Source: an uncultured Nitrospirales bacterium (GTDB taxonomy: Bacteria; UBA10199; JADGCS01). Taken from it: a DNA stretch of 64,000 nucleotides. The notes beneath the pieces are model-generated. The model did no database searches and was not told where the DNA came from. It saw only the letters and a program-made list of their open reading frames with translations. The stretch covers positions 19,063-83,062 of the forward strand of contig CAZGMS010000148.1 of the NCBI GenBank assembly GCA_964526915.1, read 5' to 3'. A program made the position numbers and the translations under genes. Positions 44,980 to 64,000 of this stretch are shown here, piece after piece (the stretch's first letter is position 1; every line of letters starts with the position of its first letter).

Positions 44980-44989
44980 ATAATGTTTC

Positions 44990-48521: not shown

Positions 48522-48536
48522 AGGCGTCTTTCCCTA

Positions 48537-49295: not shown

Positions 49296-49349
49296 ACGAG
49301 GTCTCCTTTGTGACCATTGATACCTGCGACGGACGTGTGAAGCAAGATT

Positions 49350-49655: not shown

Positions 49656-49985
49656 ATGCCAAACCTCCTTCTCTTGGAAGCACTCCGTGTATTTTGTGTG
49701 CAAGCACAATGCCAAAACAACACAAACATATCTCGTCGGAATCAAAGCGATTTTAGGCAACCCCCCGGTGGCGACCCGGTCGATTTTTTGACGTTTTTCT
49801 CGTTTTGATGGGCATTTTTTGTCCTCCTTGATAATATCCTGTTAGCATGATAGTTTGGGCGCTCCAGTAGTTCTTTGACTCGTGGATTTCTGACTATTCG
49901 GTATTTGCTGTTTTTTATTTGTGCGTATAGAATATGAATCTTGAAGCGCAATGCCCGAATTACGAACTATGAACCTAGAACTACG

Positions 49986-50007
49986 AAATTTGGCAGCTGC
50001 CAAATTT
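49986..50007. promoter_or_regulatory. perfect 22-bp palindrome AAATTTGGCAG|CTGCCAAATTT immediately 5' of tmRNA
   Basis: Loop-less inverted repeat ending 2 nt before the tmRNA 5' G; followed by TTTT. Confidence 0.4.
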
Positions 50008-50009
50008 TC

Positions 50010-50385
50010 GGGGCCGATAACGGTTTCGACGGGGATGACGCGTGTATGATCGGCAGGCCGAGTTGAAGGCACTCGTTAAACGACTTCACAAATCCAATTG
50101 CAAACGATAACTTTGCACAGGCACCTGAGCTTGCTCTGGCTGCTTGACCTGATCTCATAGTAGATCACGTTCATGTTGTGGATCGCCTCAGTCGATGGCA
50201 TGGGCGTAACCAATTGGGGCTCGCTTGGTAGTTTTGTCTACTGGCTACCGGGCTAAATAAAAATGGGCTGGCCAAAAAAATCCGGTCACGGGGAAACTTT
50301 TTTGGTAAGATTCAAACTGTGGCTAAGCTTGTAGAAGGCATACACAAACATTTTCGGACGTGGGTTCGACTCCCACCGGCTCCAC
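50010..50385 (+). ncRNA. ssrA: tmRNA (ssrA), one-piece
   Basis: 5' GGGGCCGATAACGGTTTCGACGGGG; 3' GGACGTGGGTTCGACTCCCACCGGCTCCA(C) tRNA-like end; internal tag reading frame GCA AAC GAT AAC TTT GCA CAG GCA CCT GAG CTT GCT CTG GCT GCT TGA gives ANDNFAQAPELALAA. Confidence 0.85.
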
Positions 50386-50430
50386 TTTTTGGGTTGTTTC
50401 ATACGATCCAATAACATTCAAAGAAATACT

Positions 50431-50458
50431 AAAAACCCACGTAACAGTGGGTTTTTTA
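50431..50458 (+). terminator. intrinsic terminator downstream of tmRNA
   Basis: AAAAACCCAC-GTAACA-GTGGGTTTTTT. Confidence 0.6.
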
Positions 50459-50564
50459 TTGCTTTTCATATCCTAGGACGTCTTTTTTTATGCGTTGACA
50501 TCTTAGGGCTAGTTGAGGCAACTTTGGGGGCAACTGCAAAACGCGGAAAGGAGTTGCCCCCAAA

Positions 50565-51809
50565 ATGAACTTAAGCAACACGCAAATCAATAACGCCAAA
50601 TCTTTGGATTCACCCTACCGACTTTTTGATGGAGACGGTCTATATTTGGAAGTGCGCCCCAATGGTTGCAAGTGGTGGCGGTTCAAATTCAGATTTAACG
50701 GAAAAGAAAATCGCATCTCGTTTGGTGTGTATCCCGAAATCAGTCTTAAACGCGCACGCGAAAGACGCGAAGAGGCTCGTAGGCAAATTGCCGAGGGCAT
50801 CAACCCAAGCGAACATCGCAAGGCCACCAAATTCGCCAAGGCAGAAAGTGACGCCATGACGTTTGAGGTGATTGCGCGAGAATGGATTGAGCATAAATCC
50901 AAAAACAAAAAACAGTCGGGTGGATTTGTAGAACGCTACGCCAAAGATTTGCTGAGACGAATTGAATACGATCTGTTTGGCCCTTTGGGCAAAAAACCGA
51001 TCACCGAAATTACAGCACCAGAAATCTTGCGTGTTTTACGAAAGGTTGAAGAGCGCGGTGCGTACGAAACCGCTCACAGGCTTTTGCAAAACTGCGGACA
51101 GATTTTTCGTTACGCCATTTCTACCAGCCGTGCCAAATACGATCCGTCACGTGATCTTAAAGACGCCCTTGTGCCTGTTTTACGCAAACACCACGCCGCC
51201 ATTATTGATCCCAACGGTGTAGCGCATCTTTTAAGGGCCATTGATGGTTACAAAGGCAGCCCCATTGTTCGCGCCGCTCTTAAGCTTGCCCCACTCTTTT
51301 TTGTGAGACCTGGGGAACTCAGAAAAGCAGAATGGACAGAGATCAACCTTGATACCGCCGAGTGGAACATCCCTGCCGAGCGGATGAAGATGAAACAACC
51401 GCATCTTGTGCCGTTGTGCAGACAAGCCATTGAGGTTTTAAAAGACCTGCACACCGTTACAGGTTCGGGACAATATCTGTTCCCCAATCCACGCTGCAGA
51501 CTCAAACCCATGAGCGACAACGCCATCCTCGCCGCACTGCGCGGCATGGGGTACACAACTGATGAAATGACAGGTCATGGTTTTAGAGCAATGGCCAGAA
51601 CGATTATGGATGAAGTGCTTGGCATCCGTCCTGATTTTATTGAACACCAACTCGCTCACGCTGTCCATGATCCCCTTGGCCGAGCGTATAACCGCACGTC
51701 ACACCTTCTTGAACGCAAAAAAATGATGCAACAATGGGGGGATTATTTGGACAATCTTAGAATGAATGTGGGTGCGGAGGTGATACCGCTGAAAAGGGAG
51801 GCGCTGTGA
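50565..51809 (+). CDS. tyrosine-type integrase (phage P4-like, DUF4102 N-terminal)
   Basis: N-terminal LSDxxxxxAK...GLYLxVxPxGxKxWRFKxRxNGKE; catalytic-domain R...HxxR...Y region (HGFRAMARTIM, HQLAHAV). Confidence 0.85.
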   Translation: MNLSNTQINNAKSLDSPYRLFDGDGLYLEVRPNGCKWWRFKFRFNGKENRISFGVYPEISLKRARERREEARRQIAEGINPSEHRKATKFAKAESDAMTFEVIAREWIEHKSKNKKQSGGFVERYAKDLLRRIEYDLFGPLGKKPITEITAPEILRVLRKVEERGAYETAHRLLQNCGQIFRYAISTSRAKYDPSRDLKDALVPVLRKHHAAIIDPNGVAHLLRAIDGYKGSPIVRAALKLAPLFFVRPGELRKAEWTEINLDTAEWNIPAERMKMKQPHLVPLCRQAIEVLKDLHTVTGSGQYLFPNPRCRLKPMSDNAILAALRGMGYTTDEMTGHGFRAMARTIMDEVLGIRPDFIEHQLAHAVHDPLGRAYNRTSHLLERKKMMQQWGDYLDNLRMNVGAEVIPLKREAL

Positions 51810-52615
51810 AAACAAACGGCAAACTACTTCCACAGCAGACCCTGCTCATTGAACTTGAGCACGTTTTAGAAACATTCACATTGGAAGAACGCAAGAGCCT
51901 ATTCGAGTACTGGGAGCATCGTGACAAATCACATGTGTTAAGAAGAGACTGGTGGCACCAAAAATTCTACCGCAGAAAAGATGAAAATGAAAAAAATGAT
52001 GGTTTTGTTGAACAATCTTTTGCCCTGAAGAGCATTGTTGTTACAGAAAAACCATACACCAGAGAGATGTTTTATAATTCCGACGGAAGATTTGGTTTGC
52101 CTAATAAACCGGTTGCCTACTTTTCAGACTGGCTGACCGGCACATGTGAGATGCTACCCGCCTTTCGAGACAATCCTCTTCTGACATCAGAGGAGTTGGA
52201 ATTATACATGTCACGCAAACTTGACCCTGATCCCACGGGGGGAAAGCTATGTGGTTATCCACGTGTATTCTTCTTACATCCTGATGTTGTGATACTAAAT
52301 TTATCCAGGCCGACAGCTTCTTTTTTTAGTATTTTGCAAAACAAATCCAGAGATCTGTTTGGCTTTGTTGTCAGCAGTATAATGAGTAGAGACAAATCGT
52401 GTTATCTATTAACCCAGGTTATTTCTTCTTTTGCCCACAAGTTCGGATTTCATGGGGCATTATATCGCTCGGTTCGCATTCCTCGTGATTGGCACTTTAC
52501 CGGTGGTGAAAATTTGGTTTTGTTTTGTGACCAAATCAATGGTGTGCCCATTGTAGAAAGAAGGATGGATAGGATTGAACGTAACAAAACTCACAACTTG
52601 AAAAACAATCAATGA
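51806..52615 (+). CDS. RES-domain-like protein (putative NAD-targeting toxin family), co-transcribed with the integrase
   Basis: GTG start overlaps the integrase stop (GTGA) with GGGAGG SD; GRFGLPNKPVAYFSDWLTGTCE and RSVRIP...ENLVLFCD resemble the R...E...S core of RES domains. Confidence 0.4.
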   Translation: MKTNGKLLPQQTLLIELEHVLETFTLEERKSLFEYWEHRDKSHVLRRDWWHQKFYRRKDENEKNDGFVEQSFALKSIVVTEKPYTREMFYNSDGRFGLPNKPVAYFSDWLTGTCEMLPAFRDNPLLTSEELELYMSRKLDPDPTGGKLCGYPRVFFLHPDVVILNLSRPTASFFSILQNKSRDLFGFVVSSIMSRDKSCYLLTQVISSFAHKFGFHGALYRSVRIPRDWHFTGGENLVLFCDQINGVPIVERRMDRIERNKTHNLKNNQ

Positions 52616-52630
52616 ATCAAAAGGAGTCTC

Positions 52631-52951
52631 ATGGCTAAGGGTGGTCACAGGGAAGGTGCGGGGAGAAAAAAGGGAAGCGCAAACCTTCTTACTCAAAAAC
52701 TTCGCGAACAGATCAACGCGCCCAGGCTGATTCGGTTGTTACAAGAAATTGCCGATGGCACGGTTGAAGGTGGTGCGTCTGTGGCCGAGAGAAAAGACGC
52801 GGCCATCGCCCTGCTACGCAAGGTATTGCCAGATTGCCGAACGGAAGATGTTGGGGCATCAACTGCCCCCACGACGGTTGTTATTCACAGCAATGTGCCG
52901 ATGGGGTTTAGTAGGAATAAAGAGAATTTTGATCTAATAAAGCATCAGTAA
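52631..52951 (+). CDS. hypothetical protein with basic N-terminus (MAKGGHREGAGRKKGS)
   Basis: ORF with AAGGAG SD; the N-terminus resembles phage small DNA-binding / terminase-small-subunit leaders; otherwise unassignable. Confidence 0.3.
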   Translation: MAKGGHREGAGRKKGSANLLTQKLREQINAPRLIRLLQEIADGTVEGGASVAERKDAAIALLRKVLPDCRTEDVGASTAPTTVVIHSNVPMGFSRNKENFDLIKHQ

Positions 52952-53008
52952 CCAGTTAAAATTATTCATTTTTTGATTAATATTCATCTAAAACCCATCT
53001 AAATTCAT

Positions 53009-54634
53009 CTAATTTGAACGGGTGATCCGCCACCGTCCTTTAAGTGATGATCCGTCATAAAATATCTTTCCGTTCTTTTTTAGTTCCTGAAGTATGTTGG
53101 AAATATCTTGAGGCAGATATTCAGAGAAGCCACTGATCAGGTCTTCGCGCCTAGACGGTTTCCCGGCTCGTATATGATTCAGTACCAATTCTTTGATCTG
53201 GTCGCGAGTCAGGCCTTTTAATCTTGTATGTTTTCCACTTTGACCAATTGTTTCGTAATAGCGGTGGGAAAGAATGTATTTGGTACCACTCGTTTTACCA
53301 ACAGCTTCAATAATACCCGCTTTAAGAAATTTTTTCTTTAAGTCGGCATTAACCATGGATTCCCCGCGTCTAACACGCTCCAATTCCAAAATTTCGTGAA
53401 CATCCAAAAGAATTTGATTTTCGCGTGCGACCTTTTCCAAAAACAAAACAAACGACTTGTCCTGCACCTGTGCTGGAATTTTAATGACAACCGAATAATG
53501 GTCACTACTCGACAAATCAGGAAGCCCTTTGCCATCACGAATACAGTGCGCAAAAATATCGTCCATTCCCTGGCCGGATCGTTCGACGAGCCCCACCTTT
53601 TCAAGCGTTTCGGCAAGTCGTCGGTTACGCCAACTCTTTTGATCAATCACATTTTCGGGTGTAATGCCCGGCAAAAACCCACCGGGGCTTTCAATCGTAA
53701 TGGACTTAGAATTGGCAAGAATGAATATCGAGCGACCACGGATTGAATAATCGCGGTGCGTGATGGCGTTTAACCAAGCCTCGCGAACTGATTTTTCATC
53801 AAACGCCATGATCTCTTTTTGAAAAAGCCCGTCTTGATACGGAATACGAAAGTTACGGGCATTAATAATCTGCCAAACGACATCATGAATTTTAAAATAG
53901 GGCTCGCGCCAACATTCGCGAAAGTCGTGGTGCGTCTGTTCCGCTGTGCTACGCCACTCAAAGATGATCTCTGAGTCAGCCAACAGTCTGTCCAAAAATG
54001 ATTTTTTACCCAAGAGAATCAGGCAGGCGTAATTCAGCCGGTTGTTTTCTATGAGATTGAGGGCATCCAAAATTTTGTGGGTGCTGTAGTTGAGAATTTC
54101 TGGACGTTTCTTTTTGTCGGCCCAAATACTTTTTAAGTTCTTAAGCGCATCGGGATCAAGATCATCAGTGGTCATGCCCTCAACAATAGTGGCCGAAAAA
54201 TCGGGCTGTACCTCATTAAGAATTTGACGTGTTTTATGGTCATCCATTTCAACAAGCGATTCACCGACTCTCATGGGATAGGTGTAATCGCCTGTTGATC
54301 GAACGCGCTGTCCTTTGTGTCTGGCGGGGATATGAAAGACGAGCACGCGCCCGTCTGAATGATTTAGTTCTTCAACATCGATTCTGATTTTAAGCTTTTG
54401 CAACAGTTCGTGTGGGAGTTTGTTATAAGTTCCAGAAAAGGCATTTGTGCCAACGACAACCCGACCATCGGTCACTCCCAATATCAGTTTGCCACCACCT
54501 TCGTTGGCTAGGGCTGCGCAATAATCGGGCAAATCCTTGTCTTTGCTAAAGCTGTTTTTTGCCGTCTTGAATTCAAGATTCAAGCCTTCTGGTTGTTTCA
54601 GCCAATGGGTGAATTGTTCGAGAGTGGTTTTCAT
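53009..54634 (-). CDS. AlbA_2 (Schlafen-like) + HATPase_c_4 + C-terminal wHTH protein
   Basis: N-terminal EGLNLEFKTAKNSF...ALANEGGGKLILGV (AlbA_2 core); central HRDYS...GRSIFI...ITIESPGG (HATPase_c_4); ATG 54634 with GGAGGG SD. Confidence 0.55.
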   Translation of the reverse strand: MKTTLEQFTHWLKQPEGLNLEFKTAKNSFSKDKDLPDYCAALANEGGGKLILGVTDGRVVVGTNAFSGTYNKLPHELLQKLKIRIDVEELNHSDGRVLVFHIPARHKGQRVRSTGDYTYPMRVGESLVEMDDHKTRQILNEVQPDFSATIVEGMTTDDLDPDALKNLKSIWADKKKRPEILNYSTHKILDALNLIENNRLNYACLILLGKKSFLDRLLADSEIIFEWRSTAEQTHHDFRECWREPYFKIHDVVWQIINARNFRIPYQDGLFQKEIMAFDEKSVREAWLNAITHRDYSIRGRSIFILANSKSITIESPGGFLPGITPENVIDQKSWRNRRLAETLEKVGLVERSGQGMDDIFAHCIRDGKGLPDLSSSDHYSVVIKIPAQVQDKSFVLFLEKVARENQILLDVHEILELERVRRGESMVNADLKKKFLKAGIIEAVGKTSGTKYILSHRYYETIGQSGKHTRLKGLTRDQIKELVLNHIRAGKPSRREDLISGFSEYLPQDISNILQELKKNGKIFYDGSSLKGRWRITRSN

Positions 54635-54737
54635 TGGGTTGAACCCTCCAGCATTTTGATGGCATCCTCAGCATGGCCATAAGAACCCATGAATACCTTG
54701 TGTCTGTCTTTTGTGGTGTTGAAGAGGGTGGATTTGA

Positions 54738-54755
54738 GGGGGGGGGCGTTTTTTT
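54738..54755. repeat. homopolymeric G9 tract followed by T7 in the intergenic region upstream of the Schlafen-like gene
   Basis: GAGGGGGGGGGCGTTTTTTTGAG read directly from the sequence. Confidence 0.6.
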
Positions 54756-54816
54756 GAGTCCTCGGCTTCTTGTTTTGTTTTGGTTTCATAATCTATCATT
54801 TCGAAAGATTGCAGAG

Positions 54817-56694
54817 TCACCACAATTCATCTGCAACGATTCCTGTAATGTCGGAAATAATTCTCTTTAATTCTTGAACTTTTGTATTTGTACTATCTTC
54901 AAGATACGTACTGAGGTCGTTTTGGCAAAAATTGATAACATGGAAGAGTCCCTTTTGAATGCCAAGATAAATTTCTAAATCACCTTCTTTTAAGACATAA
55001 GTTCCATTCGGATATTCCTCTTCAATTTTGGCAACAACATCAGTATGGTTTGCTAAAAATTGGGAAGCAAGTTGCACAGTATTTATTTTGGTAGCAGTTT
55101 CGGTTGGATAATACTTCCAAGCAGAGTCAAGGTCGGTTATAAAAAATGTTTTCAAACCAAACGGCTCAAATAAACTTCTCCATTTTGAATCGTTATTTTT
55201 GTCATTGATATCCAGAATTGTAATATCTTGAACTAACCCTTTTTTGATATTCATTTCTATCTCACCAAGTAAAGCGCGAAAAAAATATCGGTCAGAATCA
55301 CCTTCAACGAGCAATATTTTGCTCCCAAAAAATGCGTGGGTAGATCGCTTGTTGTCCAGAATTTTTACGAGCCATTTTTGATCAGTGGTAATGTTAGGCC
55401 TATTGATTTTTGTGTAACCATTGTTATCAAGAGAAAGGCGTACCACATTACTAATAGTTGCAGAATTTATAAGAGATTCCGAATGGGTTACAAGAATATA
55501 CTGGCAACCTTGTTCGATATTTAGTTTTTCTATGACACGGAGATATTCGCTCTGAAATTGATAGTGTAAATGGATTTCTGGCTCATCAATGATAACAAGG
55601 CCACCTTTCAAATCGCCTCGTCCATACGCCTCGAAAACTAAATGTGTTATGGCTTTTTGTCCTGCGCTTAGAGAGTTTATATTTGAAACGATTCTATTTC
55701 TTTTCGTATCAACAAATGAAAAAGTGAAGTTCCACTGGGAATAATCAAGGAGTTTAATTTCAACTTTGAGATTAACAATATTGAGCTTGTCATTAATGTT
55801 TTTTATAAAATCTAGATCGTTGGCTGCGGTTTCGCATTCTTTTTGATCTCTTTTGGTTCTTATCAAGTCAAAGCACGTTCCTGCCATTCTCAATCTAACC
55901 AAACTAAAAATTGATGGCTCGCTATTTTCGGCCGAGTTCATGCTCCTAGAGTATTCCGCCAATCTGATTTCTGAAATTTGTTTTGGGGCTGTATTCCCAC
56001 CACCAAGAGAAACATGAGCAGCGTAGGAGTTGTAATTTCTATATCCGCCAATCAATGCAAATGATTCGGCTAAATTGTTTATTGGCGTGCCTGGATTTTC
56101 TTCGTTATATATTTCTATTATCTCTTTATACAAGTTGTATGCGCTTAAATATGTATAGCCAATGTCTTGGTTGGTTTGGATAGCATAAGTTTTATTCACG
56201 CTGTCTAAAGTGATATCAAGTTGATATTCTCCCTGAGGTGTGCCGTCAGCAAACATTTGTTCTGCAGAATAAAGGCCGATTATTGGTGCGAGCTTATCCT
56301 TATTGTTCTTGAGGTGTTGGATATTCGCTCGGTCAATATCATCCAATTCCACTACAACTCGAATTTTTTGTTCCCTGTCCTCAAAATCGTAATTTCTATC
56401 AAGACGAAAGTCCCGGTAATATTGAACATTCGTTATTTTCGATAAAATGTTCCTTTTGTCATTAACATTAATCGTTGTCCTTTTTGTGTATAAATCCGCA
56501 TTTCTGTTGTACGGAACAAAAACAACTCTCCTAAAAATAAAATTGATCACTTCTAACACTGTTGATTTGCCAGAGCCATTTTGACCAATCAGAATGCTTA
56601 AATTTTCATCAAAGGTGATTTTTTGCGCATGCGCAATGTTAGCAACATAGGCGAAGCTAAGCACATTTGAAATTTGGAGAGCTTTGATTTTCAT
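54817..56694 (-). CDS. OLD-family nuclease-like protein (N-terminal ABC-type ATPase + C-terminal Toprim/DUF4435-like domain)
   Basis: Walker A GQNGSGKST, signature LSAGQK, Walker B VIIDEPEIHLH, H-loop VTHS; C-terminal ILLVEGDSDRYFF Toprim motif. Confidence 0.6.
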   Translation of the reverse strand: MKIKALQISNVLSFAYVANIAHAQKITFDENLSILIGQNGSGKSTVLEVINFIFRRVVFVPYNRNADLYTKRTTINVNDKRNILSKITNVQYYRDFRLDRNYDFEDREQKIRVVVELDDIDRANIQHLKNNKDKLAPIIGLYSAEQMFADGTPQGEYQLDITLDSVNKTYAIQTNQDIGYTYLSAYNLYKEIIEIYNEENPGTPINNLAESFALIGGYRNYNSYAAHVSLGGGNTAPKQISEIRLAEYSRSMNSAENSEPSIFSLVRLRMAGTCFDLIRTKRDQKECETAANDLDFIKNINDKLNIVNLKVEIKLLDYSQWNFTFSFVDTKRNRIVSNINSLSAGQKAITHLVFEAYGRGDLKGGLVIIDEPEIHLHYQFQSEYLRVIEKLNIEQGCQYILVTHSESLINSATISNVVRLSLDNNGYTKINRPNITTDQKWLVKILDNKRSTHAFFGSKILLVEGDSDRYFFRALLGEIEMNIKKGLVQDITILDINDKNNDSKWRSLFEPFGLKTFFITDLDSAWKYYPTETATKINTVQLASQFLANHTDVVAKIEEEYPNGTYVLKEGDLEIYLGIQKGLFHVINFCQNDLSTYLEDSTNTKVQELKRIISDITGIVADELW

Positions 56695-57659
56695 AAGCTT
56701 CTCTCCACAATTTTGATTTTATGTTCGGTGGGACCGTAGAGCTTGTCACCCGAATCATGTCGTTTCTTATGCTCCCCGTAATATTCGGTAAGTTTTGTGC
56801 ATATACGGTTTTTCAGATCAGGAAATTCATTAAAGGGATAATATGTCACTGTGTTTTTTACTGACTCAAGAAAGGATTTTAATTCGCTGGTCTGCTGTGA
56901 TTGGGCATCTGTAAACAAAAACCGGTGTTTGCTATGCGCAGCATTGAACTCTTTTTTAACCGCGGGTCTTATTTCATTACGAAACATTCCAATGTAAACG
57001 TCACAGTTCTTCACAGCTTCCAAATAAAGTTCTTCCGGGGGCTCTGGGGCTGGGCTGGCATCTGATTCGAATACAAACACATGATAGAGTCGTCCAATCA
57101 CTGGATCAGTTTCTATGAGAAATTTTAGAAGTTTTCGTTCATGCAAAAACTCATCCTGTGCAGAACTCAAAAAAACCTTGAGTTTATCATTGAGCTTAAG
57201 GCCCATCTCTTCCCATAATATGTGACAGTTTAATTTTGTTTTGCTTATTTCTATCTCAATTTGATGTGCTTGTTGATCCTTTATTCTGCCGGCTGTCATT
57301 GTGTCACCACGCATCAAATCATCAATGACCTGAAATAGATGATCCTTGTTATGAAAAGAAAACAACTCCTGCTCAACCATCGTCCTAAAATCACCACTTG
57401 GCAGTACATTGTACTCCACACAAAGGCGCCTTACCTCGCCAATGCAATCATCGACAATTCTTCTTCTTGTGGCCATAAATAATTCAATCTGATTATGATG
57501 CCTCATGCCGGAATTTAATGTACCCCTTGCGTTATGCCCATTATCTATTTTTATTTTGTCCTTTCGTGACTCATCAAGGTGAGCTTCAGAAATTCTTGTT
57601 TTATGATTTTGCCACAAATCAAAAATGCGTTTTTCAAATGGATTAAGTTGATTGTTCAT
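56691..57659 (-). CDS. hypothetical protein, operon partner of unknown function (possible C-terminal DUF4062-like Rossmann region)
   Basis: ATGA overlaps on both sides; no confident motif; the C-terminal segment LYHVFVFESDA...CDVYIGMFRNE weakly resembles the DUF4062 nucleoside-deoxyribosyltransferase-like pattern. Confidence 0.3.
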   Translation of the reverse strand: MNNQLNPFEKRIFDLWQNHKTRISEAHLDESRKDKIKIDNGHNARGTLNSGMRHHNQIELFMATRRRIVDDCIGEVRRLCVEYNVLPSGDFRTMVEQELFSFHNKDHLFQVIDDLMRGDTMTAGRIKDQQAHQIEIEISKTKLNCHILWEEMGLKLNDKLKVFLSSAQDEFLHERKLLKFLIETDPVIGRLYHVFVFESDASPAPEPPEELYLEAVKNCDVYIGMFRNEIRPAVKKEFNAAHSKHRFLFTDAQSQQTSELKSFLESVKNTVTYYPFNEFPDLKNRICTKLTEYYGEHKKRHDSGDKLYGPTEHKIKIVERSL

Positions 57660-60600
57660 TTCCCCACCCCCTCCACAATTTTGATTTCGTCATCAGTGAG
57701 GCCGTAGAGGGAATAGACAAGCTGGTCGATTTTCTTTTCGTATTCTTTGACTTGAACCTGTTTTTGCGGATTTTTTAAGTAGTCATCGGATTTGGTGATC
57801 TCTAATATTTTATCAACAATTTCGATGAGGGGTTTTTGATTTGATTCTGAAACCGTTACAAGCGGCAAATTTATTAATGGCTCTTTATCAATCTGAAAAT
57901 TATTTCCCTGCATTTTGCCTTTGTGGCGCAACCAAAATACAACTAACTTTGAATTTAACAAGGCAACCAAATATTTAAGACTCATTCTTTCCGTTTTGAT
58001 TACATAAAATGTTGCGGAAACGTAACTGTCAAAATCAACATAACTAAAAGTTGGCTCTTCACACTTTCTTGCAACAATAATTTTTTCTCCGATAAAGTAT
58101 CTCTCATCTCTGGATCTGTGCAACCCGTATGGTTTATTGTCAGAAGTGATTACTTTTGAAAATTGATCGAGATGTTTTTTGATATTGGGATAGCCTTCAA
58201 TCTTTTTTACGTTTTTAAAACTTGAGTCGGTATAAATCACCCATTCTTTATTATTTGGATTCCCATACCAGCGAAATAATTCTTTGGTCGTATAAGATGG
58301 TTTAATTAGGCCACGCTCATTTTCTGTAAAAGGTATTCTCTCTCTTTCAGAATTGCTAAGTACAAATATGCCATCTCCAATACTGTAATTACCACCCAAC
58401 TTTGTCTGGCTTGCTTTGTTAACATAATCTTGAGGATATACGATGCCTTGCTTAACCTCTGTATCACAATCCAACTGAATATTTTGTTTGGAACATATTT
58501 TTTCTAAAACTGGGCTGACAGCTGAATTGCTAAAAGTGAGGGGTTTATTCACCATCTCTGTTCTGATTATATTTGGTTCTAAGTATTCTGTTTTATTATT
58601 TTGGCATTTGCCCAAAACAGCTAGAACATCCTCGAACTGCAATTCCTGCTCAATGAGCCTGCGGAAATCAAAATTATAGTTTTCATTGCTAGCGTCTTTT
58701 TGAAAAATCATCACCATAGTTTGAATGCCTGCACATTCAAATATTTTGTAGTCTCCAAAATCAACTAAATGCAAAATCTGGGTGTCACTCATTATCTTGT
58801 TCCTGAGCACAGAGGCACCATAGCTCGTCACCCAGTTGTTTTGAGCAATAAAAGACAAAATGCCAGTGTTGTTTCTGAGAAGATCAATGCTCTTACATGC
58901 AAAGAAATACCACAGGTCCATTTTCCCCTGATAATAGGGGGACTTTCTAAGCCCATCGAAAGCCGATTTTTGGGTATATTCTTTAATATACGGCGGATTC
59001 GCGATTACGATATCGAACCCGCCATTCTCAAACACCTCAGCAAAGTGAAATTTCCAAAGAAAAAATGGTTTTGTTTTTGATTTCTTGAATTGCTCTAGTT
59101 TCTTGAGTTCTGAAGTTTTGTTTTGTTCCTGAAGCGTGGCTTCAATAAGGCACCATTCCATCTTATCGATTTGATTTCTCAGTTTCTTTTTATTCTCTTT
59201 TTCATTCGTTTCAAAATACTCTTTATGCAACCGTTTTAATTCGTCACTCAAAGATTGAGCCCCTAACTGTTCGTATAAGTTAAGCTCTCTTTGCTGCTTT
59301 GTCTTTTCAAAGCCTTTTAACTCGGTAGCTAAAGCCATTTTTCTCGCATCCAATGCTTTTCTACAATTTTCCAATACTAGTAAATCGGCAGGTTTTTCTA
59401 AGTTATTCTTCCTCATCCAATTCGGATTTCTCTGATAATACTTTAGCCGCTCACTATCATTTTCCTGCAATTGCAGATCAATTTTACTAATTTGAGCAAC
59501 AATGTCTTGTTTTGATGTTTGAGAAAGATATTTTTCATCAAATAGTTTTACACCTTCATACTCCTCCAACAGACTATTGCCCTGCATGATTTTGAAATCC
59601 AAATTCGGTAAAGGCTGAATATCGTCTTTGTCCTCGTCAACCAATAGAGAAATAAAGAAACGTAACTTTGCTATTTCTACGGCAATTTGTTGAACGTCCA
59701 CGCCGTAAATGCACCTTTGAATTAAATACAGCTTCCTCCAATAATCAGGTTTCTTTGTCTGAAAATATTCTTTTATCTCTTTTATTGTCTTGGCTTTAAG
59801 GTTTTGGTCGGGGATCGCATCTGCAGATTTTAGCTGGGCTTGTTCCCAGAGTTTATTGTCGCGATCTACTTTATTAAGAATGAAAACCAGTTTGTTGAGC
59901 ACCCCCATGGGGAAGGCACCAGACCCAACCGCAGGATCAACAATTTTGACACTTTCAACCAGCTCTACCAACTTCTTTTTTTCCTGATCATTAAAAAGAT
60001 TTTCTTGGCTCTCGACAGAGAATAATACGCCCAATTTTTCATCCAGATTTTCTATGCCCTCAAGGTGTGTTTTGAAATAGACTTTGAGCGATTCGCTCAC
60101 CATGTAATCAACAATCTCCCTTCGCGTGTAATAACTACCTGTGGCCTTGCGAGCCGTGGTGGAGGTTTCGGGATTAAAGCTAGCCAGAAGGTTTTCAAAA
60201 ACTCTACCCAAAAGTTCAGGGTCCAGGGCAACCTCGGCATCGTCTGGTGAGTTTTCGTCAATTGTGAAGTTAAACGAAGACAGAATATTTAGCAGTCCGC
60301 TGACCAGATATTTTTTGTTTTTAGTGTCAAAATCTTTATTGAGATCAACCTTTTTCTCTTGGCTGAAAAACAGTTCATTGGGAACAACTGGCTGATTTTT
60401 TTTTGTTCTAGAAAATCCGTCTATGATAATTCCATTGGGCCTATCATCCAAACACTCAAAGAGACCGCCGTTCAAAAATGGAATGCTCTCAAAATATTTT
60501 TTCAAATCTTCCGGACTTTTAAAAAGCTCCTGATAACGAAAGACGTATTGATTACCAAAATCGGAATTGTATCCTTTGTGTCCTCTCGCCTCGCTACCAA

Positions 60601-61423
60601 AGTCCCGTTCTTCTTTTTTGGTGCTCAGCGTCGCAAAAAACAAATTCTGAAGAATGCCCGTGTAATAAGTGGTAGCTTCATCATCTAAACTCTTGAGAAT
60701 TGAATCGATGCTCTTTTTTTCAAACAATTCTCTTGGGACCAGACCTCGCTCTCGCATAAACCAGATAAAAATCATTCTGGTAATCAGTCTGATAACGGCA
60801 ATGTTTTTGCCGTTATCCTCTGCTATCGCATCTTTGGGAAATTGGGTTGTTTTTACAGCCCAAAAATACCAATAAGAAATGCGCTCGTAGAATTCTTTGG
60901 TAACCTTATCTACCGAGAAAGCATCTTTAATTTTTTCTAAACTGGAAAAATCACCGTCGCCGATTCGTTGTTTAAATGTTTTATTCGTAACTTGCAGTTC
61001 AGAACTGACAAAATAAGTAAATCGGCGGAAATTATTCCACTGCCGACGGGTGCCGATTGATTCTGGATAGACGAGAGAAAAACGAAAGTTTCCACTTGGA
61101 TCGTGGAAAACAAAAATACCTGCCGAAAACATCTGGTTTTCTGCCGACCTCAAGATGCTTTTAGCTTTTTCATACTGAGCCTTTTTGCCCAAACGCTCAG
61201 AAAGCTCTTTTTTAACCTTAAAGGAGCATACGATTAGACTGTCACCATCAGAAAAATTGATTTCACCAAGTTTCGTTCCATTTCCAAAGTCAGGGTCATC
61301 AAAGTGAGTATAATTCTCTCCGCCAGGCTTATATTGGCGGGTTTTTACTCGAAAATATTTGTTCAGCGTTTCAACAGAAAAATGTTCAATGAGGGCTTCT
61401 AAAATTTGTCTGGTTTCACTCAT
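57656..61423 (-). CDS. large N6-adenine DNA methyltransferase, PglX / DrmMI / Type IIG-like (about 1255 aa)
   Basis: SAM motif I VDPAVGSGAF, motif IV NPPY (IANPPYIKEY), C-terminal TaqI_C-like target-recognition region (LVALLNSKLVVFWL). Confidence 0.7.
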   Translation of the reverse strand: MSETRQILEALIEHFSVETLNKYFRVKTRQYKPGGENYTHFDDPDFGNGTKLGEINFSDGDSLIVCSFKVKKELSERLGKKAQYEKAKSILRSAENQMFSAGIFVFHDPSGNFRFSLVYPESIGTRRQWNNFRRFTYFVSSELQVTNKTFKQRIGDGDFSSLEKIKDAFSVDKVTKEFYERISYWYFWAVKTTQFPKDAIAEDNGKNIAVIRLITRMIFIWFMRERGLVPRELFEKKSIDSILKSLDDEATTYYTGILQNLFFATLSTKKEERDFGSEARGHKGYNSDFGNQYVFRYQELFKSPEDLKKYFESIPFLNGGLFECLDDRPNGIIIDGFSRTKKNQPVVPNELFFSQEKKVDLNKDFDTKNKKYLVSGLLNILSSFNFTIDENSPDDAEVALDPELLGRVFENLLASFNPETSTTARKATGSYYTRREIVDYMVSESLKVYFKTHLEGIENLDEKLGVLFSVESQENLFNDQEKKKLVELVESVKIVDPAVGSGAFPMGVLNKLVFILNKVDRDNKLWEQAQLKSADAIPDQNLKAKTIKEIKEYFQTKKPDYWRKLYLIQRCIYGVDVQQIAVEIAKLRFFISLLVDEDKDDIQPLPNLDFKIMQGNSLLEEYEGVKLFDEKYLSQTSKQDIVAQISKIDLQLQENDSERLKYYQRNPNWMRKNNLEKPADLLVLENCRKALDARKMALATELKGFEKTKQQRELNLYEQLGAQSLSDELKRLHKEYFETNEKENKKKLRNQIDKMEWCLIEATLQEQNKTSELKKLEQFKKSKTKPFFLWKFHFAEVFENGGFDIVIANPPYIKEYTQKSAFDGLRKSPYYQGKMDLWYFFACKSIDLLRNNTGILSFIAQNNWVTSYGASVLRNKIMSDTQILHLVDFGDYKIFECAGIQTMVMIFQKDASNENYNFDFRRLIEQELQFEDVLAVLGKCQNNKTEYLEPNIIRTEMVNKPLTFSNSAVSPVLEKICSKQNIQLDCDTEVKQGIVYPQDYVNKASQTKLGGNYSIGDGIFVLSNSERERIPFTENERGLIKPSYTTKELFRWYGNPNNKEWVIYTDSSFKNVKKIEGYPNIKKHLDQFSKVITSDNKPYGLHRSRDERYFIGEKIIVARKCEEPTFSYVDFDSYVSATFYVIKTERMSLKYLVALLNSKLVVFWLRHKGKMQGNNFQIDKEPLINLPLVTVSESNQKPLIEIVDKILEITKSDDYLKNPQKQVQVKEYEKKIDQLVYSLYGLTDDEIKIVEGVGK

Positions 61424-64000
61424 AGTTTCTTGTTTTCAATAGCAATGATGATTTCCCTTTTTTGATCTTTTAGCCGACTATTTTCTTTGACTAAATATTC
61501 TTCACCAAGTTCGTCTTTTAATTCCAAAAGATCTTTGACGAAAGCTTCTCTAATATTGGCAATTCGACGCAAGGTATAATCTGCCAAAGTGCCGTAGCTG
61601 AGAATGTCTTCTTTCAGCGTGCGCAGAAACTTTTTACAGGGCATCAGATTCTCGCTGGCGCTTTTGATCAGAAAGTTGAGATTGTTCAGCGCCTTCATCT
61701 CCAAGCTTTGCTCACTTGTTGGGCCTAAACGATAATTTCTGAAGTCCTGAATTGCCTGATAGGCCTGCCAAAATTGGTCGGTGTTCCATTGCAACGGTTT
61801 TTCATCCGGCAAACAAGCGATTTTTTCAAACACGTCTTCAAAAACAGTTTGATAGGATTCAACCTTTTCTGCGTCAGTGCGGGCTCCACTTACATACAGC
61901 CGCCCCTTTTTAAAAAACACCAAGAGTTCGTTTTCGTTGTACCCCTTCGAGGATTTAATGCGTGGCGGGTAATTATTAAGATTTTCTATCAATTCGGGAT
62001 GTTCTTTTTTAATTCTCAAAAACTCCTTCAAAACCTTAGTATAAAAACCTTCCTCCTCTTGATCGTCCGGATTTTGCTGAATACGCTTAAATAGACCTGC
62101 AGGGGTAGGTTCCTCTTCTATGTCAAAAATTTTGCAGTCTTCACCAAGTGCGTTGTGAATCAGGAACATCTTGTTGGCCGCGATCTCACGCGACTTAACA
62201 AGTTCCGCACCCTGCTCCGTGGGGAAAAAGTTAACAATGTATAACTCCTCAAAAACCTTCTTGCTGATACGATTGATTCGCCCCAGTCGCTGGATCACGC
62301 GCACGGGATTCCAAGGAATATCGTAGTTGATGACCATTCCAGCCCGATTAAGGTTGAATCCTTCGGAAATCTTGTCTGAAGAAAGAAGAAGCTCAAAGTC
62401 ATTCTCCTGCTCCGGATAAGAAGCATCGAAGTTTTTATTTATTTTAACAATTTTTGAAGCAGGCAAATCCCCTGCGACAACTAGCATTTTACCGCCATAA
62501 TGTTTTGAGAGTTTTTTTTCTAAATAGAGCACTGTATCAACGTATTCTGTAAAAATAATAATTTTCCGTTTGGGGGCCCCCTTTTTCGACGGCTTGGAAA
62601 ATTCATCCTCAAGGTGGTCTATTAGACAGGCTGCTTTTGGATCATGCTTTATCAAAGCTAATTTTGAAAGCTTGCATAATACTTCATCAAATAATTTTAA
62701 ATCCAACTCTATTGCTTCAATAAACCCTGCTCTATTTTTGAATTCCTTGAGTTTATAGCGCTTGTGGCTTTTAGGGTATTCACCTCGACTAATTTTTTTC
62801 TCATACTCAAGCAGATATTTTTCAATCTCATCATCGCCCAATTCGTAAATTTTGTCCAAAAGAGCCCGATCCAGTATATATTCATCGGTTTTCTTGATAA
62901 ATTGATAACTGTTTTCGGTAATTATTTTAAAATTCTTGATGCTTTGCTCAAAAGAGCCAAACGAACTTTCAAAACGCTTAACGAGCAAGCGGCGCATAAA
63001 ATCAAACAAATTTCGTTGTTGAATAAACTGACGATTGTCTTCCTCATTCCTTTTTTCATGGGGATCTCTTTCATATTCAAACGGCCGGTAGATAGCTCCT
63101 TTGAAACGTCCACCATTTTCGGGGTCTCCAAAATAGTTTTCAATAATTTCTGAGTAAAATTCTGACTGTTCTTTGTTTAATTCAAAGAACCATTCTTTTG
63201 GGCCTGCAACTTTTGATAATTCTTTGACCTCGTTTTTATAAAATGGATTGTTTTGCAAATCCAAACGATTGCGCCTGATCGTCACCGGTTCAATGACATT
63301 CCTGATTTGCCTGGCTAGGTAATGCGCTCTTCCTGTGATTTTTTTGAGATCAACAGTTCCATCCCCAAATAAGGTCTTATAGTAATTTTGTGCTTTAGTT
63401 CTTTTGTTCACATCTGAAGAATTCCAATATTTTTTAATATAACCAAGTCGGTCAAAAACACCCTTAAAGCCTTTGAATTGGTCAACGAGATTGCTTTCCA
63501 ATGTGATCGATGATTTTTTGGGGGTAATGAACAACTTAAGAAGCGAAAGAATGTCACCTGGTCGATTGTTAAATGGTGTTGCAGTCAATAGAATGACCTG
63601 TTTATTGCGGCAAATATTTTTGAGGATTTCATAATCTTGAGTGTCTTGATTTCTAAAACGATGGGCTTCATCAACAATCACAACCTCGATTTCTTTTGTT
63701 TTGTTAACATACTCTAGAGTGCTTTCCAGATCACCAAGGGACCGAACCTCCCAATTTTGAAGCCCGAATTCTTCGGTATATTTATTCCAACCTGAGTTCT
63801 TATTTCTGTCTCCAACAAGTCCGGGTGGACAGATAATGACGCCTCGCGTTTTGAGCTGTTTTGCAATGGCACAAGCAATGATGGTCTTACCGAGTCCCAC
63901 AACATCAGCCACAATGACGCCATGATTGTTTTCTATAATAGACAGTGCCTGCCTGACCGCATCGAGTTGATATTGGTAGGGTATATAGCCATTTTCTTCC
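61420..64000 (-). CDS. SNF2-family (SF2) helicase, 5'-truncated by the window end
   Basis: Q-motif/motif I PYQYQLDAVRQAL...VADVVGLGKT, motif II VIVDEAHRFRN, motif III LLTATPFNN, helicase C motifs FTEYVDT and QRLGRINR. Confidence 0.7.
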   Translation of the reverse strand, partial: EENGYIPYQYQLDAVRQALSIIENNHGVIVADVVGLGKTIIACAIAKQLKTRGVIICPPGLVGDRNKNSGWNKYTEEFGLQNWEVRSLGDLESTLEYVNKTKEIEVVIVDEAHRFRNQDTQDYEILKNICRNKQVILLTATPFNNRPGDILSLLKLFITPKKSSITLESNLVDQFKGFKGVFDRLGYIKKYWNSSDVNKRTKAQNYYKTLFGDGTVDLKKITGRAHYLARQIRNVIEPVTIRRNRLDLQNNPFYKNEVKELSKVAGPKEWFFELNKEQSEFYSEIIENYFGDPENGGRFKGAIYRPFEYERDPHEKRNEEDNRQFIQQRNLFDFMRRLLVKRFESSFGSFEQSIKNFKIITENSYQFIKKTDEYILDRALLDKIYELGDDEIEKYLLEYEKKISRGEYPKSHKRYKLKEFKNRAGFIEAIELDLKLFDEVLCKLSKLALIKHDPKAACLIDHLEDEFSKPSKKGAPKRKIIIFTEYVDTVLYLEKKLSKHYGGKMLVVAGDLPASKIVKINKNFDASYPEQENDFELLLSSDKISEGFNLNRAGMVINYDIPWNPVRVIQRLGRINRISKKVFEELYIVNFFPTEQGAELVKSREIAANKMFLIHNALGEDCKIFDIEEEPTPAGLFKRIQQNPDDQEEEGFYTKVLKEFLRIKKEHPELIENLNNYPPRIKSSKGYNENELLVFFKKGRLYVSGARTDAEKVESYQTVFEDVFEKIACLPDEKPLQWNTDQFWQAYQAIQDFRNYRLGPTSEQSLEMKALNNLNFLIKSASENLMPCKKFLRTLKEDILSYGTLADYTLRRIANIREAFVKDLLELKDELGEEYLVKENSRLKDQKREIIIAIENKKL

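What the first reader, a model, noticed from the sequence alone, without database searches (positions are those of the whole stretch)
50386..64000. Genomic island inserted at ssrA, marked by a P4-type integrase and an AT-rich composition shift
The tyrosine integrase (DUF4102 N-terminus) starts 180 bp after the tmRNA 3' end, the classic ssrA attachment-site configuration. Everything from about 50.5 kb to the window end is visibly more AT-rich than the core genes, with many AAA/TTT codons in 55-63 kb. The defence cargo is therefore probably horizontally acquired. The right-hand att repeat should lie beyond 64000.
Basis: partly seen in the sequence, partly recalled or inferred. Interest (0 to 1): 0.6.

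Follow-up and report, generated by a model that had tools for sequence, protein, structure and literature searches.

The report
Defence-carrying mobile island at ssrA
A mobile DNA island carrying anti-phage defence genes has very probably inserted at the end of the bacterium's tmRNA gene using a P4-type integrase; this is a well-known kind of element, and its far end lies outside the sequence available.

Summary
A full-length tmRNA gene (50010-50385) is followed 180 nt later, on the same strand, by an intact P4-family tyrosine integrase (50565-51809). GC falls from 0.48 in the core to 0.44 (51.8-54.8 kb) and 0.38 (54.8-64 kb). One correction: the integrase gene itself has core-like GC (0.488).

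Two 62%-identical integrases, in a Sideroxydans genome and a Deltaproteobacteria MAG, start 177 and 176 nt after their own tmRNA genes. In the MAG, a 10.2-kb island is bounded by an exact 19-bp repeat of the tmRNA 3' end. A 13-mer, TTTGGGGGCAACT, flanks the integrase start here and recurs at both ends of the MAG island; it is a candidate arm-type integrase site.

Metagenome contigs identical to the window extend it to about 68.98 kb. They add an HTH regulator, a nickase-like gene, a type IV coupling protein and an AlpA-family excisionase gene. The element is therefore at least 18.6 kb and looks like an integrative mobilisable element, not a prophage.

No att repeat occurs in the sequence available, and no empty-site comparator exists, so both boundaries remain inferred.

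The cargo is a restriction-like pair (PLD-SNF2 helicase plus N6-adenine methyltransferase) with OLD-family, DUF4062 and Schlafen-type neighbours. It is a new member of a known kind.

The parts
50010..50385 (+). ssrA (tmRNA gene), the integration target. It is full length, but only the first C of the 3' CCA is encoded (the gene ends ...CTCCAC, followed by TTTTT).
   Evidence: ARAGORN; Rfam RF00023, 183 bits, model positions 1-374 of 374; sequence.
50369..50385 (+). Predicted attL core ACTCCCACCGGCTCCAC, running from the 3' part of the T-loop to the tmRNA 3' end. Inferred by homology, not shown here.
   Evidence: It is positionally equivalent to the 19-bp ATTCCCGCCGCCTCCACCA that is exactly repeated at both ends of the 10.2-kb island in L142. 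No second copy exists in the window, L001 or L126.
50431..50456 (+). Intrinsic-terminator-like hairpin followed by a T run, lying between ssrA and int. A hairpin occupies the same place in the two related islands.
50523..50535 (+). TTTGGGGGCAACT, candidate arm-type integrase binding site (left copy of an inverted pair).
   Evidence: These are the only two matches in 64 kb even with 1 mismatch allowed (expected 0.23). The same 13-mer lies upstream of int and again near attR in L142. GGGGGCA clusters sit upstream of int in L138 and L142.
50552..50564 (-). Second copy of TTTGGGGGCAACT, inverted and abutting the int start codon.
50565..51809 (+). P4-family tyrosine integrase, 414 aa, apparently intact.
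   Evidence: Pfam PF13356, PF22022 and PF00589. NCBIfam PRK09692, 247 bits, below its curated cut-off of 434. 40% identical to P4 Int. Catalytic R248, H338, R341, H365 and Y375 are invariant in the alignment.
51806..52615 (+). RES-domain-like ORF (269 aa from a GTG start) overlapping the int stop by 4 nt. The annotation is weak.
   Evidence: PF08808 RES, E 7e-6, 26.5 bits against a cut-off of 23.2. No PADLOC or NCBIfam hit.
52631..52951 (+). 106-aa ORF of unknown function.
   Evidence: No Pfam hit. phrog_15261, unknown function, E 7e-6.
53009..54634 (-). Schlafen/AlbA_2 plus HATPase_c_4 protein (541 aa), a class repeatedly found beside BREX-like systems.
   Evidence: Pfam. PMC12839542 describes this architecture next to BREX and BREX-related loci.
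54817..56694 (-). OLD-family ABC ATPase fused to a TOPRIM nuclease domain (625 aa).
   Evidence: PF13175, PF13304 and PF20469. PADLOC AriA, Old, PtuA and GajA at 1e-22 to 1e-24. No NCBIfam equivalog reached its cut-off.
56691..57659 (-). DUF4062-domain protein (322 aa), lying between the methyltransferase and OLD genes.
   Evidence: PF13271, E 4e-8. No PADLOC hit. The single-sequence AlphaFold model was unusable (pLDDT 42.6).
57656..61423 (-). Eco57I-type N6-adenine DNA methyltransferase with a TaqI_C specificity domain (1255 aa). No recognisable nuclease domain.
   Evidence: Pfam. PADLOC REase_MTase_IIG, 3e-80, covering residues 304-1252 only. PDB BseCI and CamA methyltransferases. 40% identical over residues 55-619 to the methyltransferase next to the homologous helicase in P. 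distasonis.
61420..64000 (-). PLD (HKD) nuclease plus SNF2 helicase. The gene runs off the window; the full protein is 1107 aa and ends at window-equivalent 64743.
   Evidence: Reading frame open at 64000. Full gene on L001, which is 100% identical to window 54715-64000. PF13091, PF00176 and PF00271. PADLOC DrmD 5e-37 and 'HKD+Snf2' 1e-34.

Best explanation
Window 50386 to beyond 64000 is the left part of an integrative element at least 18.6 kb long. It very probably entered the 3' end of ssrA by site-specific recombination catalysed by its own P4-family tyrosine integrase.

Proposed mechanism.
- The integrase's N-terminal arm-binding domain recognises TTTGGGGGCAACT-type arm sites next to int. 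By analogy with the related island in L142, it should also recognise arm sites near the far end. This step is inferred.
- The catalytic domain exchanges strands within the tmRNA T-loop, so the element itself supplies the last ~17-19 nt of a functional ssrA. This is inferred from L142.
- An AlpA-family protein encoded about 18.5 kb downstream would direct excision. This is inferred from CP4-57 and CP4So.
- A type IV coupling protein and an adjacent nickase-like gene suggest that the excised circle can be mobilised by a conjugative apparatus supplied in trans or encoded further right. This would make it an integrative mobilisable element (IME-like). This step is also inferred.

The element is a mosaic. 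It has a core-GC integration module, a 0.44-GC segment (RES-like ORF, unknown ORF, Schlafen-type gene), a 0.34-0.39-GC defence operon, and a 0.38-0.43-GC mobilisation module.

The defence operon is a restriction-modification-like pair: a PLD-nuclease/SNF2 translocase acting as the restriction subunit, and an N6-adenine methyltransferase marking self DNA. It is joined to likely back-up or abortive-infection effectors (OLD ATPase-TOPRIM, DUF4062 protein, Schlafen-type protein) and sits under an HTH regulator.
For: Shown directly:
- tmRNA and int adjacency and shared orientation.
- The integrase is full length with conserved catalytic residues and is 40% identical to P4 Int.
- GC step of 4-5 SD for the defence genes.
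- Defence-type domains in the cargo.
- Contigs L001 and L126/L127 match the window exactly over the part they share. They extend it with an HTH gene, a 253/257-aa gene (phrog 'replication initiation by nicking', E 1e-4), a T4CP (TraG-D_C, TrwB_AAD_bind) and an AlpA N-terminus (PF05930, E 4e-8).

Comparative:
- Integrases P0187 (Sideroxydans sp. CL21) and P0212 (Deltaproteobacteria MAG), both 62% identical, start 177 and 176 nt after tmRNA genes.
- L142 has an exact 19-bp repeat of the tmRNA 3' end 10.2 kb apart. It encloses TIR-like, PLD, AlpA, toxin-antitoxin and Fic genes, at GC 0.488 against flanks of 0.534 and 0.514.
- The terminator and GGGGGCA-motif layout between ssrA and int is conserved.
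- The integrase clade occurs in Beta- and Deltaproteobacteria, Syntrophales and Anaerolineae records, as expected for a mobile element.

Literature: P4-like ssrA elements CP4-57 and CP4So carry restriction-modification and toxin-antitoxin genes and are excised by AlpA (PMC5148205).
Against: - No second att copy exists in the 18.6 kb available, so neither the right boundary nor the crossover point is demonstrated for this locus.
- No empty ssrA site could be shown. The only relatives retrievable (67-70% identical FAD oxidase) keep the small-protein/SDR/FAD-oxidase/ArgDC/YgjP/tRNA-Ala synteny but have no tmRNA there.
- The integrase has host-like GC, so that module is either ameliorated or comes from a similar-GC donor.
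- No relaxase was confidently identified and no mating-pair genes were seen.
- The extension comes from metagenome contigs (Rifle aquifer and a JGI sample), not from the window's own record. The overlap is 100% identical for L001 (9,286 nt); for L126 only the terminal 60 nt were tested, and they matched exactly.
Confidence: 0.85

Rival explanations
1. It is a decayed, immobile remnant. An element once integrated at ssrA but has lost its right att site, so the integrase, AlpA and T4CP genes are relics and the defence genes are now fixed chromosomal cargo.
For: No attR in the 18.6 kb available. The related Sideroxydans island (L138) also lacks an intact repeat within 11 kb. The integrase GC equals host GC, which fits long residence.
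Against: The integrase is full length with all catalytic residues. The paired 13-mer candidate arm sites are exact. The AlpA and T4CP reading frames are open as far as they can be read. The sequence simply ends before any boundary could be seen.
Confidence: 0.12
2. It is a P4-like satellite or cryptic prophage (of the CP4-57 kind) rather than a mobilisable island.
For: P4-type integrase, an AlpA-family gene, and the same ssrA-int geometry as CP4-57 and CP4So (own knowledge; PMC5148205).
Against: No capsid, primase, Psu/Sid/Delta-like or other phage-function genes occur in 18.6 kb. PHROGs gave only the integrase, repressor-like HTH hits, one family of unknown function and one weak nickase hit. 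A TraD/VirD4-type coupling protein is present instead. No close relative of the integrase turned up in IMG/VR (best 44%, next to tRNA-Thr).
Confidence: 0.06
3. There is no island. An integrase gene merely happens to lie beside ssrA, and the low-GC stretch reflects native compositional heterogeneity.
For: Boundaries are not demonstrated. A second low-GC patch (43-47 kb) exists without an integrase.
Against: The same integrase-tmRNA spacing is seen in two distant lineages, with an att duplication in one. GC is 4-5 SD below the core. Every gene is of defence or mobility type. The 43-47 kb patch is itself an insertion relative to the relatives.
Confidence: 0.02

Closest known systems
CP4-57 of E. 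coli K-12 and CP4So of Shewanella oneidensis (P4-like elements integrated in ssrA)
   Same: A P4-family integrase lies immediately downstream of ssrA on the same strand. An AlpA-family excisionase gene is present. The cargo consists of restriction-modification, toxin-antitoxin and defence genes. The element supplies the 3' end of ssrA (PMC5148205; the E. coli ssrA-intA layout is from own knowledge).
   Different: This element has a T4SS coupling protein and a nickase-like gene and no phage-derived genes in 18.6 kb. It comes from an uncultivated, probably deltaproteobacterial-type lineage. attR has not been seen. The integrase is only about 40% identical to P4 Int; identity to IntA was not measured.
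ssrA island of Deltaproteobacteria MAG JACOUP010000008.1 (locus L142) and of Sideroxydans sp. CL21 (locus L138)
   Same: The integrases are 62% identical. The gap between tmRNA and int is 176-177 nt against 180 nt here. The terminator and GGGGGCA/TTTGGGGGCAACT motifs upstream of int are shared. L142 has an AlpA gene and defence/toxin-type cargo.
   Different: The cargo is entirely different (TIR-like/PLD/Fic in L142; DUF6387/HTH_39 in L138). L142 is only 10.2 kb with a demonstrated 19-bp att repeat. Neither shows a T4CP in the stretch read.
Type-2 BREX-related (BR) systems (PMC12839542)
   Same: The helicase carries an N-terminal HKD/PLD nuclease fused to a Swi2/Snf2 core. It is paired with a large N6-adenine methyltransferase whose catalytic domain contains an insertion (Eco57I profile positions 2-171 spread over residues 571-895). 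OLD-ABC/TOPRIM and Schlafen-histidine-kinase-type genes lie alongside.
   Different: The two family-defining components, the DUF499 AAA+ ATPase and DUF3780, are absent here. They are also absent from the two homologous helicase-methyltransferase loci inspected.
Hma (helicase-methylase-ATPase) candidate system of PADLOC
   Same: Helicase, methylase and ATPase gene content with an extra 'embedded' gene. The helicase hits the HmaA model at E 1e-24. Gene embedding is typical of Hma (bioRxiv 10.1101/2024.01.29.577857).
   Different: HmaB is an m5C methyltransferase (PMC8565338), whereas this one is N6-adenine type. The characterised HmaA has a C-terminal PD-(D/E)xK nuclease (PMC11232893), whereas this one has an N-terminal PLD. 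The HmaA match covers only the helicase C-lobe.

Membership tests
P4-family (Arm-DNA-bind_3 / DUF4102) tyrosine integrases | Three-domain architecture: arm-type DNA-binding N-terminus, central core-binding domain, C-terminal catalytic domain | tested here: met
   PF13356 (residues 3-87), PF22022 (100-201) and PF00589 (216-376).
P4-family (Arm-DNA-bind_3 / DUF4102) tyrosine integrases | Full-length sequence similarity to phage P4 Int | tested here: met
   tblastn against X51522.1/NC_001609.1: 40% identity over residues 1-396, E 4e-74. NCBIfam PRK09692 scored 247 bits, below its curated cut-off of 434.
P4-family (Arm-DNA-bind_3 / DUF4102) tyrosine integrases | Conserved catalytic Arg, His-x-x-Arg, His and Tyr | tested here: met
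   R248, H338, R341, H365 and Y375 are invariant among 6 aligned clade members. Assignment of these positions to catalytic roles is by inspection.
P4-family (Arm-DNA-bind_3 / DUF4102) tyrosine integrases | Recombination activity on att sites | not testable with these tools
   Requires an in vivo or in vitro assay.
tRNA/tmRNA-gene-integrated genomic island | Integrase gene next to the 3' end of the RNA gene | tested here: met
   180 nt downstream on the same strand. The same spacing is seen in L138 and L142.
tRNA/tmRNA-gene-integrated genomic island | Direct repeat of the RNA gene's 3' end at the distal boundary (attR) | tested here: inconclusive
   None found in the window, L001 or L126 with up to 3 mismatches, but only 18.6 kb is available. 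It is present in the related island L142 (19 bp exact).
tRNA/tmRNA-gene-integrated genomic island | Unoccupied site in related genomes | tested here: inconclusive
   Relatives L130-132 and L146-150 keep the left-flank synteny but have no tmRNA at that locus.
tRNA/tmRNA-gene-integrated genomic island | Composition different from the core genome | tested here: met
   GC 0.378 for 54.8-64 kb against a core of 0.481. Per-gene values are 4-5 SD low, except for the integrase.
Integrative mobilisable/conjugative element | Type IV coupling protein | tested here: met
   612-aa protein on L126/L127 with PF12696, PF02534 and PF10412. It lies outside the window, at window-equivalent 67009-68847.
Integrative mobilisable/conjugative element | Relaxase and oriT | tested here: inconclusive
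   The 253/257-aa gene upstream of the T4CP has only a weak hit to phrog_9381 'replication initiation by nicking' (E 1e-4) and no Pfam hit.
Integrative mobilisable/conjugative element | Mating-pair formation (T4SS) genes, required for an ICE but not for an IME | tested here: inconclusive
   None in the 18.6 kb read. The sequence ends inside the AlpA gene.
Type-2 BREX-related (BR) system | HKD nuclease fused to the N-terminus of a Swi2/Snf2 helicase | tested here: met
   PLDc_2 at residues 113-188, with SNF2-rel_dom and Helicase_C. Definition from PMC12839542.
Type-2 BREX-related (BR) system | DUF499 AAA+ ATPase in the locus | tested here: not met
   No DUF499 hit in any ORF between 53.0 and 65.9 kb. 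The only ATPase is OLD-family ABC.
Type-2 BREX-related (BR) system | Stand-alone DUF3780 gene | tested here: not met
   No hit even at E<=1 for the DUF4062 protein or the methyltransferase N-terminus.
Hma (PADLOC) | HmaB m5C methyltransferase | tested here: not met
   The methyltransferase is Eco57I/N6_Mtase type. Definition from PMC8565338.
DISARM class 1 | DrmA and DrmB (DUF1998) alongside DrmD, DrmMI and the PLD protein DrmC | tested here: not met
   The only DrmA match is a weak hit of the helicase itself (E 7e-23), below its DrmD hit (5e-37). No separate DrmA gene and no DrmB match appears among the listed hits (lists are truncated at 25 for three proteins). NCBIfam DrmD scored 150 bits against a cut-off of 610.
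Gabija | GajA (OLD ATPase-TOPRIM) paired with the GajB UvrD-like helicase | tested here: not met
   GajA-like hits at 1e-21, but no UvrD-type partner gene is adjacent.

The most novel reading that the evidence does not exclude
The low-GC operon could be an undescribed defence system. It would have a two-gene restriction-like core (N-terminal PLD nuclease plus SNF2 translocase, and an Eco57I-type N6-adenine methyltransferase lacking its own nuclease). This core also occurs in Deinococcota and Bacteroidota, always without the DUF499 and DUF3780 components that define BREX-related systems. Here an OLD ABC-ATPase/TOPRIM protein and a DUF4062 protein have been recombined in at the 3' end of the methyltransferase gene, as a duplicated 39-nt gene end suggests. 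The whole unit would be carried between phyla by an ssrA-specific mobilisable element family that shares a conserved arm-site motif.
Probability: 0.25. Interest if true: 0.5.

Novelty: new member of a known kind. Interest (0 to 1): 0.3.

Why it matters
Islands at ssrA with P4-type integrases are textbook material, so the finding mainly gives a correct annotation. It identifies a defence-loaded, probably mobilisable element in an uncultivated aquifer bacterium. It also gives a testable att core and arm-site motif for an integrase clade that spans several phyla. The cargo adds one more example of restriction-like cores collecting OLD, Schlafen and TIR-like back-up effectors. The helicase-methyltransferase pair without DUF499 may deserve experimental testing as a minimal BREX-related system.

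Tried and rejected
Attempts to reach or identify the source genome
- Exact look-ups of the window's integrase, arginine decarboxylase and SDR proteins found nothing on record. A look-up of the truncated helicase ORF also failed, because the gene runs off the window.
- The single genome-contig scan, using the HTH protein, found only 36%-identical Myxococcales hits. The source genome is therefore not among the GTDB representatives.
- Protein tables mention an 88,062-nt contig carrying both the FAD oxidase and the T4CP, but it was not retrievable.

Searches for the att site and for related islands
- A scan of viral contigs with the 20-mer att core saturated at 120 unrelated tmRNA ends, so it is too unspecific. 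L016 and L090 turned out to be unrelated tmRNAs.
- An integrase search in IMG/VR gave only a 44%-identical hit next to tRNA-Thr.
- IMG/VR searches for the DUF4062 protein and the helicase found nothing.
- A fuzzy search for attR in L138 found nothing with up to 4 mismatches. A possible decayed copy, CGCCGCCAC near 15335, was seen by eye only.

Empty-site comparison
- It was attempted via two sets of relatives (70% and 67% identical FAD oxidase). Neither has ssrA at the syntenic locus.

Rejected leads
- I first took the Logan contig ends at window 54715 for a cassette boundary. A G9 homopolymer at 54738-54746 is a more likely cause (assembly artefact), and the JGI contig L005 reads straight through.
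- A single-sequence AlphaFold model of the DUF4062 protein had pLDDT 42.6 and was discarded; no fold search was run.
- Filing the operon as DISARM, Hma, Gabija or a Type-2 BR system was rejected because defining components are missing (see the membership test).

Full report
1. Observation

ARAGORN finds one tmRNA gene at 50010-50385 on the + strand, with tag ANDNFAQAPELALAA. Rfam RF00023 matches it over the full model at 183 bits. The next ORF, 50565-51809 (+), begins 180 nt after the tmRNA's last base. It carries Arm-DNA-bind_3 (the former DUF4102), Phage_int_M and Phage_integrase domains. It is 40% identical to phage P4 Int over 96% of its length (E 4e-74). In an alignment with five clade members, R248, H338, R341, H365 and Y375 are invariant, so it looks intact.

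Block GC values are:
- 1-43000: 0.481
- 47051-50009: 0.489
- 50386-51809 (integrase): 0.478
- 51810-54800: 0.436
- 54801-64000: 0.378

Thirty-five core genes average 0.487 +/- 0.024. The defence genes lie at 0.36-0.39, which is 4-5 SD lower, while the integrase is at 0.488.

2. What the window holds to the right of ssrA

In order, the region contains:
- a terminator-like hairpin at 50431-50456;
- an exact inverted pair of TTTGGGGGCAACT at 50523-50535 and 50552-50564, the second copy abutting the int ATG. These are the only two matches in 64 kb, against 0.23 expected;
- int;
- a weak RES-domain ORF (51806-52615) and a 106-aa ORF;
- on the minus strand, a Schlafen/AlbA_2 plus HATPase_c_4 protein (53009-54634);
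- an OLD-family ABC ATPase-TOPRIM protein (54817-56694);
- a DUF4062 protein (56691-57659);
- a 1255-aa Eco57I-type N6-adenine methyltransferase (57656-61423);
- an SNF2 helicase that runs off the window.

3. Extending the sequence

Exact-protein look-ups returned metagenome contigs that match the window.
- L001 (Logan SRR446576) is 100% identical to window 54715-64000 and continues to window-equivalent 66202.
- L126/L127 (JGI 3300025152) continue to about 68983.
- L005 matches window 52866-57519 apart from a 6-nt indel.

These contigs show three things.
- The helicase is 1107 aa and has an N-terminal PLD/HKD nuclease domain.
- A 326-aa double-HTH regulator lies upstream of it.
- On the window's + strand there follow a 253/257-aa gene (weak 'replication initiation by nicking' hit), a 612-aa TraD/VirD4-type coupling protein (NCBI EKD47095.1, 'uncultured bacterium'), and the first 37 codons of an AlpA-family gene (PF05930, E 4e-8).

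Three independent assemblies stop inside the AlpA gene. The tmRNA 3' 21-mer, with up to 3 mismatches, occurs nowhere else in the window, L001 or L126. The element is therefore at least 18.6 kb, its right end remains unseen, and it carries mobilisation-type rather than phage-type genes.

4. Comparative evidence that this integrase clade targets ssrA

The exact integrase is not in the protein collection; the best hit is 84% identical. Hundreds of relatives at 60-66% identity occur in records labelled Gallionellaceae, Nitrotoga, Sideroxydans, Deltaproteobacteria, Syntrophales and Anaerolineae.

I fetched the loci of two relatives on long contigs. In Sideroxydans sp. CL21 (L138) the tmRNA ends at 9823 and int starts at 10001. 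In a Deltaproteobacteria MAG (L142) the tmRNA ends at 9824 and int starts at 10001. The gaps of 177 and 176 nt compare with 180 nt here.

In L142 the last 19 nt of the tmRNA (ATTCCCGCCGCCTCCACCA) recur exactly at 20018-20036. They enclose 10.2 kb of TIR-like, PLD, HTH, AlpA, Gp49/HTH and Fic genes at GC 0.488, against flanks of 0.534 and 0.514. The repeat starts in the T-loop, the usual crossover place for P4-type integrases (own knowledge). The equivalent segment here is 50369-50385, ACTCCCACCGGCTCCAC.

All three loci share the same layout between ssrA and int: a hairpin terminator followed by clustered GGGGGCA motifs. The full 13-mer TTTGGGGGCAACT is shared with L142. There it occurs upstream of int and again, in tandem with a second GGGGGCA copy, 1.4 kb inside attR. 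L138 has a similar tandem pair at 15251/15263. I read these motifs as arm-type binding sites; that is an inference.

The L142 AlpA is 67% identical to the fragment found here and lies 2.1-2.4 kb from attR. This suggests that the right end of the present element may be only a few kb past 69 kb, which is also an inference.

5. The empty-site test could not be completed

The flanking FAD oxidase has an identical copy in the Rifle aquifer data. Its nearest relatives are 70% and 67% identical and come from unclassified or Deltaproteobacteria-labelled MAGs. Their loci (L130-132, L146-150) keep the order small secreted protein, SDR, FAD oxidase, arginine decarboxylase, YgjP-like, tRNA-Ala. They have no tmRNA gene there by either ARAGORN or Rfam. 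Synteny breaks exactly where ssrA and the element sit in the window. That fits a variable region but is not an empty att site.

6. Nature of the cargo

The helicase and the methyltransferase form a conserved pair.
- On Allomeiothermus silvanus pMESIL02 the helicase is 41% identical over its full length, with a methyltransferase nearby.
- In a Parabacteroides distasonis record the helicase is 34% identical, and the adjacent methyltransferase is 40% identical over residues 55-619.
- The P. distasonis locus also has an HTH gene, a Schlafen-type 'RNA-binding' protein, a TIR protein and an SF1 helicase.

An HKD-SNF2 helicase paired with an N6 methyltransferase is the effector/modifier pair of the 'Type-2 BREX-related' systems described in PMC12839542. 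That paper also reports OLD-ABC/TOPRIM and Schlafen-histidine-kinase genes as recurrent back-up effectors. However, the family-defining DUF499 ATPase and DUF3780 are absent here and in both homologous loci.

Other known systems also fail on defining components:
- Hma requires an m5C methylase (PMC8565338), and its characterised helicase has a C-terminal PD-(D/E)xK nuclease (PMC11232893).
- DISARM requires DrmA and DrmB.
- Gabija requires GajB.

None of these is met. I therefore describe the operon as a restriction-modification-like module with accessory effectors, related to known kinds but not a member of them. Its function is untested.

7. Mechanism and verdict

The best-supported reading (confidence 0.85) is an integrative, probably mobilisable element inserted in the 3' end of ssrA by its own P4-family integrase. 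The evidence for each step stands as follows.
- Shown: the gene content, the ssrA-int geometry, the composition shift, and the clade-wide association with ssrA.
- Shown in a relative only: the att duplication.
- Inferred: the crossover point, the role of the 13-mer motifs as arm sites, AlpA-dependent excision, and transfer through the coupling protein.

The rivals are a decayed remnant (0.12), a P4-like satellite or cryptic prophage (0.06) and no island at all (0.02).

This is a new member of a well-known kind. Its interest is modest, and comes mainly from the cross-phylum integrase family with a defined att core and arm motif, and from the DUF499-less helicase-methyltransferase core.

Noticed in passing
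window 43000-47050: A second foreign block lies to the left of ssrA, at GC 0.414. It holds an HTH plus SocA/Panacea gene (43283-44056), 112-aa and 199-aa ORFs, a Fic gene (44990-46069) and an AbiEii/DUF2204-like nucleotidyltransferase (46209-46754). In relatives L130-132 and L146-150 the FAD-oxidase gene abuts the arginine decarboxylase gene directly, so this 4-kb toxin-antitoxin/abortive-infection-type block is an insertion. No integrase or repeat was seen.
   Followed up: partly
window 56703-56741 and 57671-57709: A 39-nt direct repeat (82% identical) sits at the 3' ends of the DUF4062 gene and the methyltransferase gene, giving both proteins the C-terminus LYG(P/L)T..IKIVE. It looks like a footprint of a cassette recombining in at the methyltransferase gene's end, as in 'embedded' defence genes.
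   Followed up: partly
window 54738-54746: There is a G9 homopolymer in the intergenic region between the Schlafen-type and OLD genes. Two Logan contigs (L001, L004) end at 54715 just beside it, while JGI contig L005 reads through. The contig ends are therefore probably an assembly artefact, not an element boundary.
   Followed up: yes
window 50380-50390: The tmRNA gene encodes only the first C of its 3' CCA (...CTCCAC then TTTTT). The tmRNA genes next to the related integrases in L138 and L142 encode CCA in full. If the element supplies this end, integration may have made ssrA dependent on the CCA-adding enzyme.
   Followed up: no
window 49296-50009; loci L130, L146: Synteny with the 67-70% relatives ends exactly at the small secreted-protein gene (homologous at 34% identity, E 2e-9). 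Beyond it the relatives carry unrelated genes and no tmRNA gene, so the position of ssrA is lineage-specific here.
   Followed up: partly
L127 6749-6853, L128 and L129 ends (window-equivalent about 68879-68990): Three independent assemblies (JGI, NCBI AMFJ01027710.1, Logan) all terminate within the first 37 codons of the AlpA-family gene. This suggests a sequence repeated among several islands in the community, or strain variation at that point.
   Followed up: no
window 53936-53941: A 6-nt indel (CTGTTC) in the Schlafen-type gene is the only difference between the window and JGI contig L005 over 4.65 kb, giving 541-aa and 539-aa versions of the protein.
   Followed up: yes
window 56-4291: The first three genes of the window have somewhat low GC (0.44; GC3 0.41-0.49). 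They are an ATPase_2/DUF234 protein and two proteins with no Pfam family. This may be another accessory patch.
   Followed up: no
L139 (Logan ERR4084226) versus L138: A 6.3-kb Logan contig of the Sideroxydans island starts exactly at the first base of the 19-nt tmRNA-end core (L138 9805). This would be expected if both attL and an alternative junction (such as an excised circle) exist in that sample. No intact attR was found in L138.
   Followed up: partly
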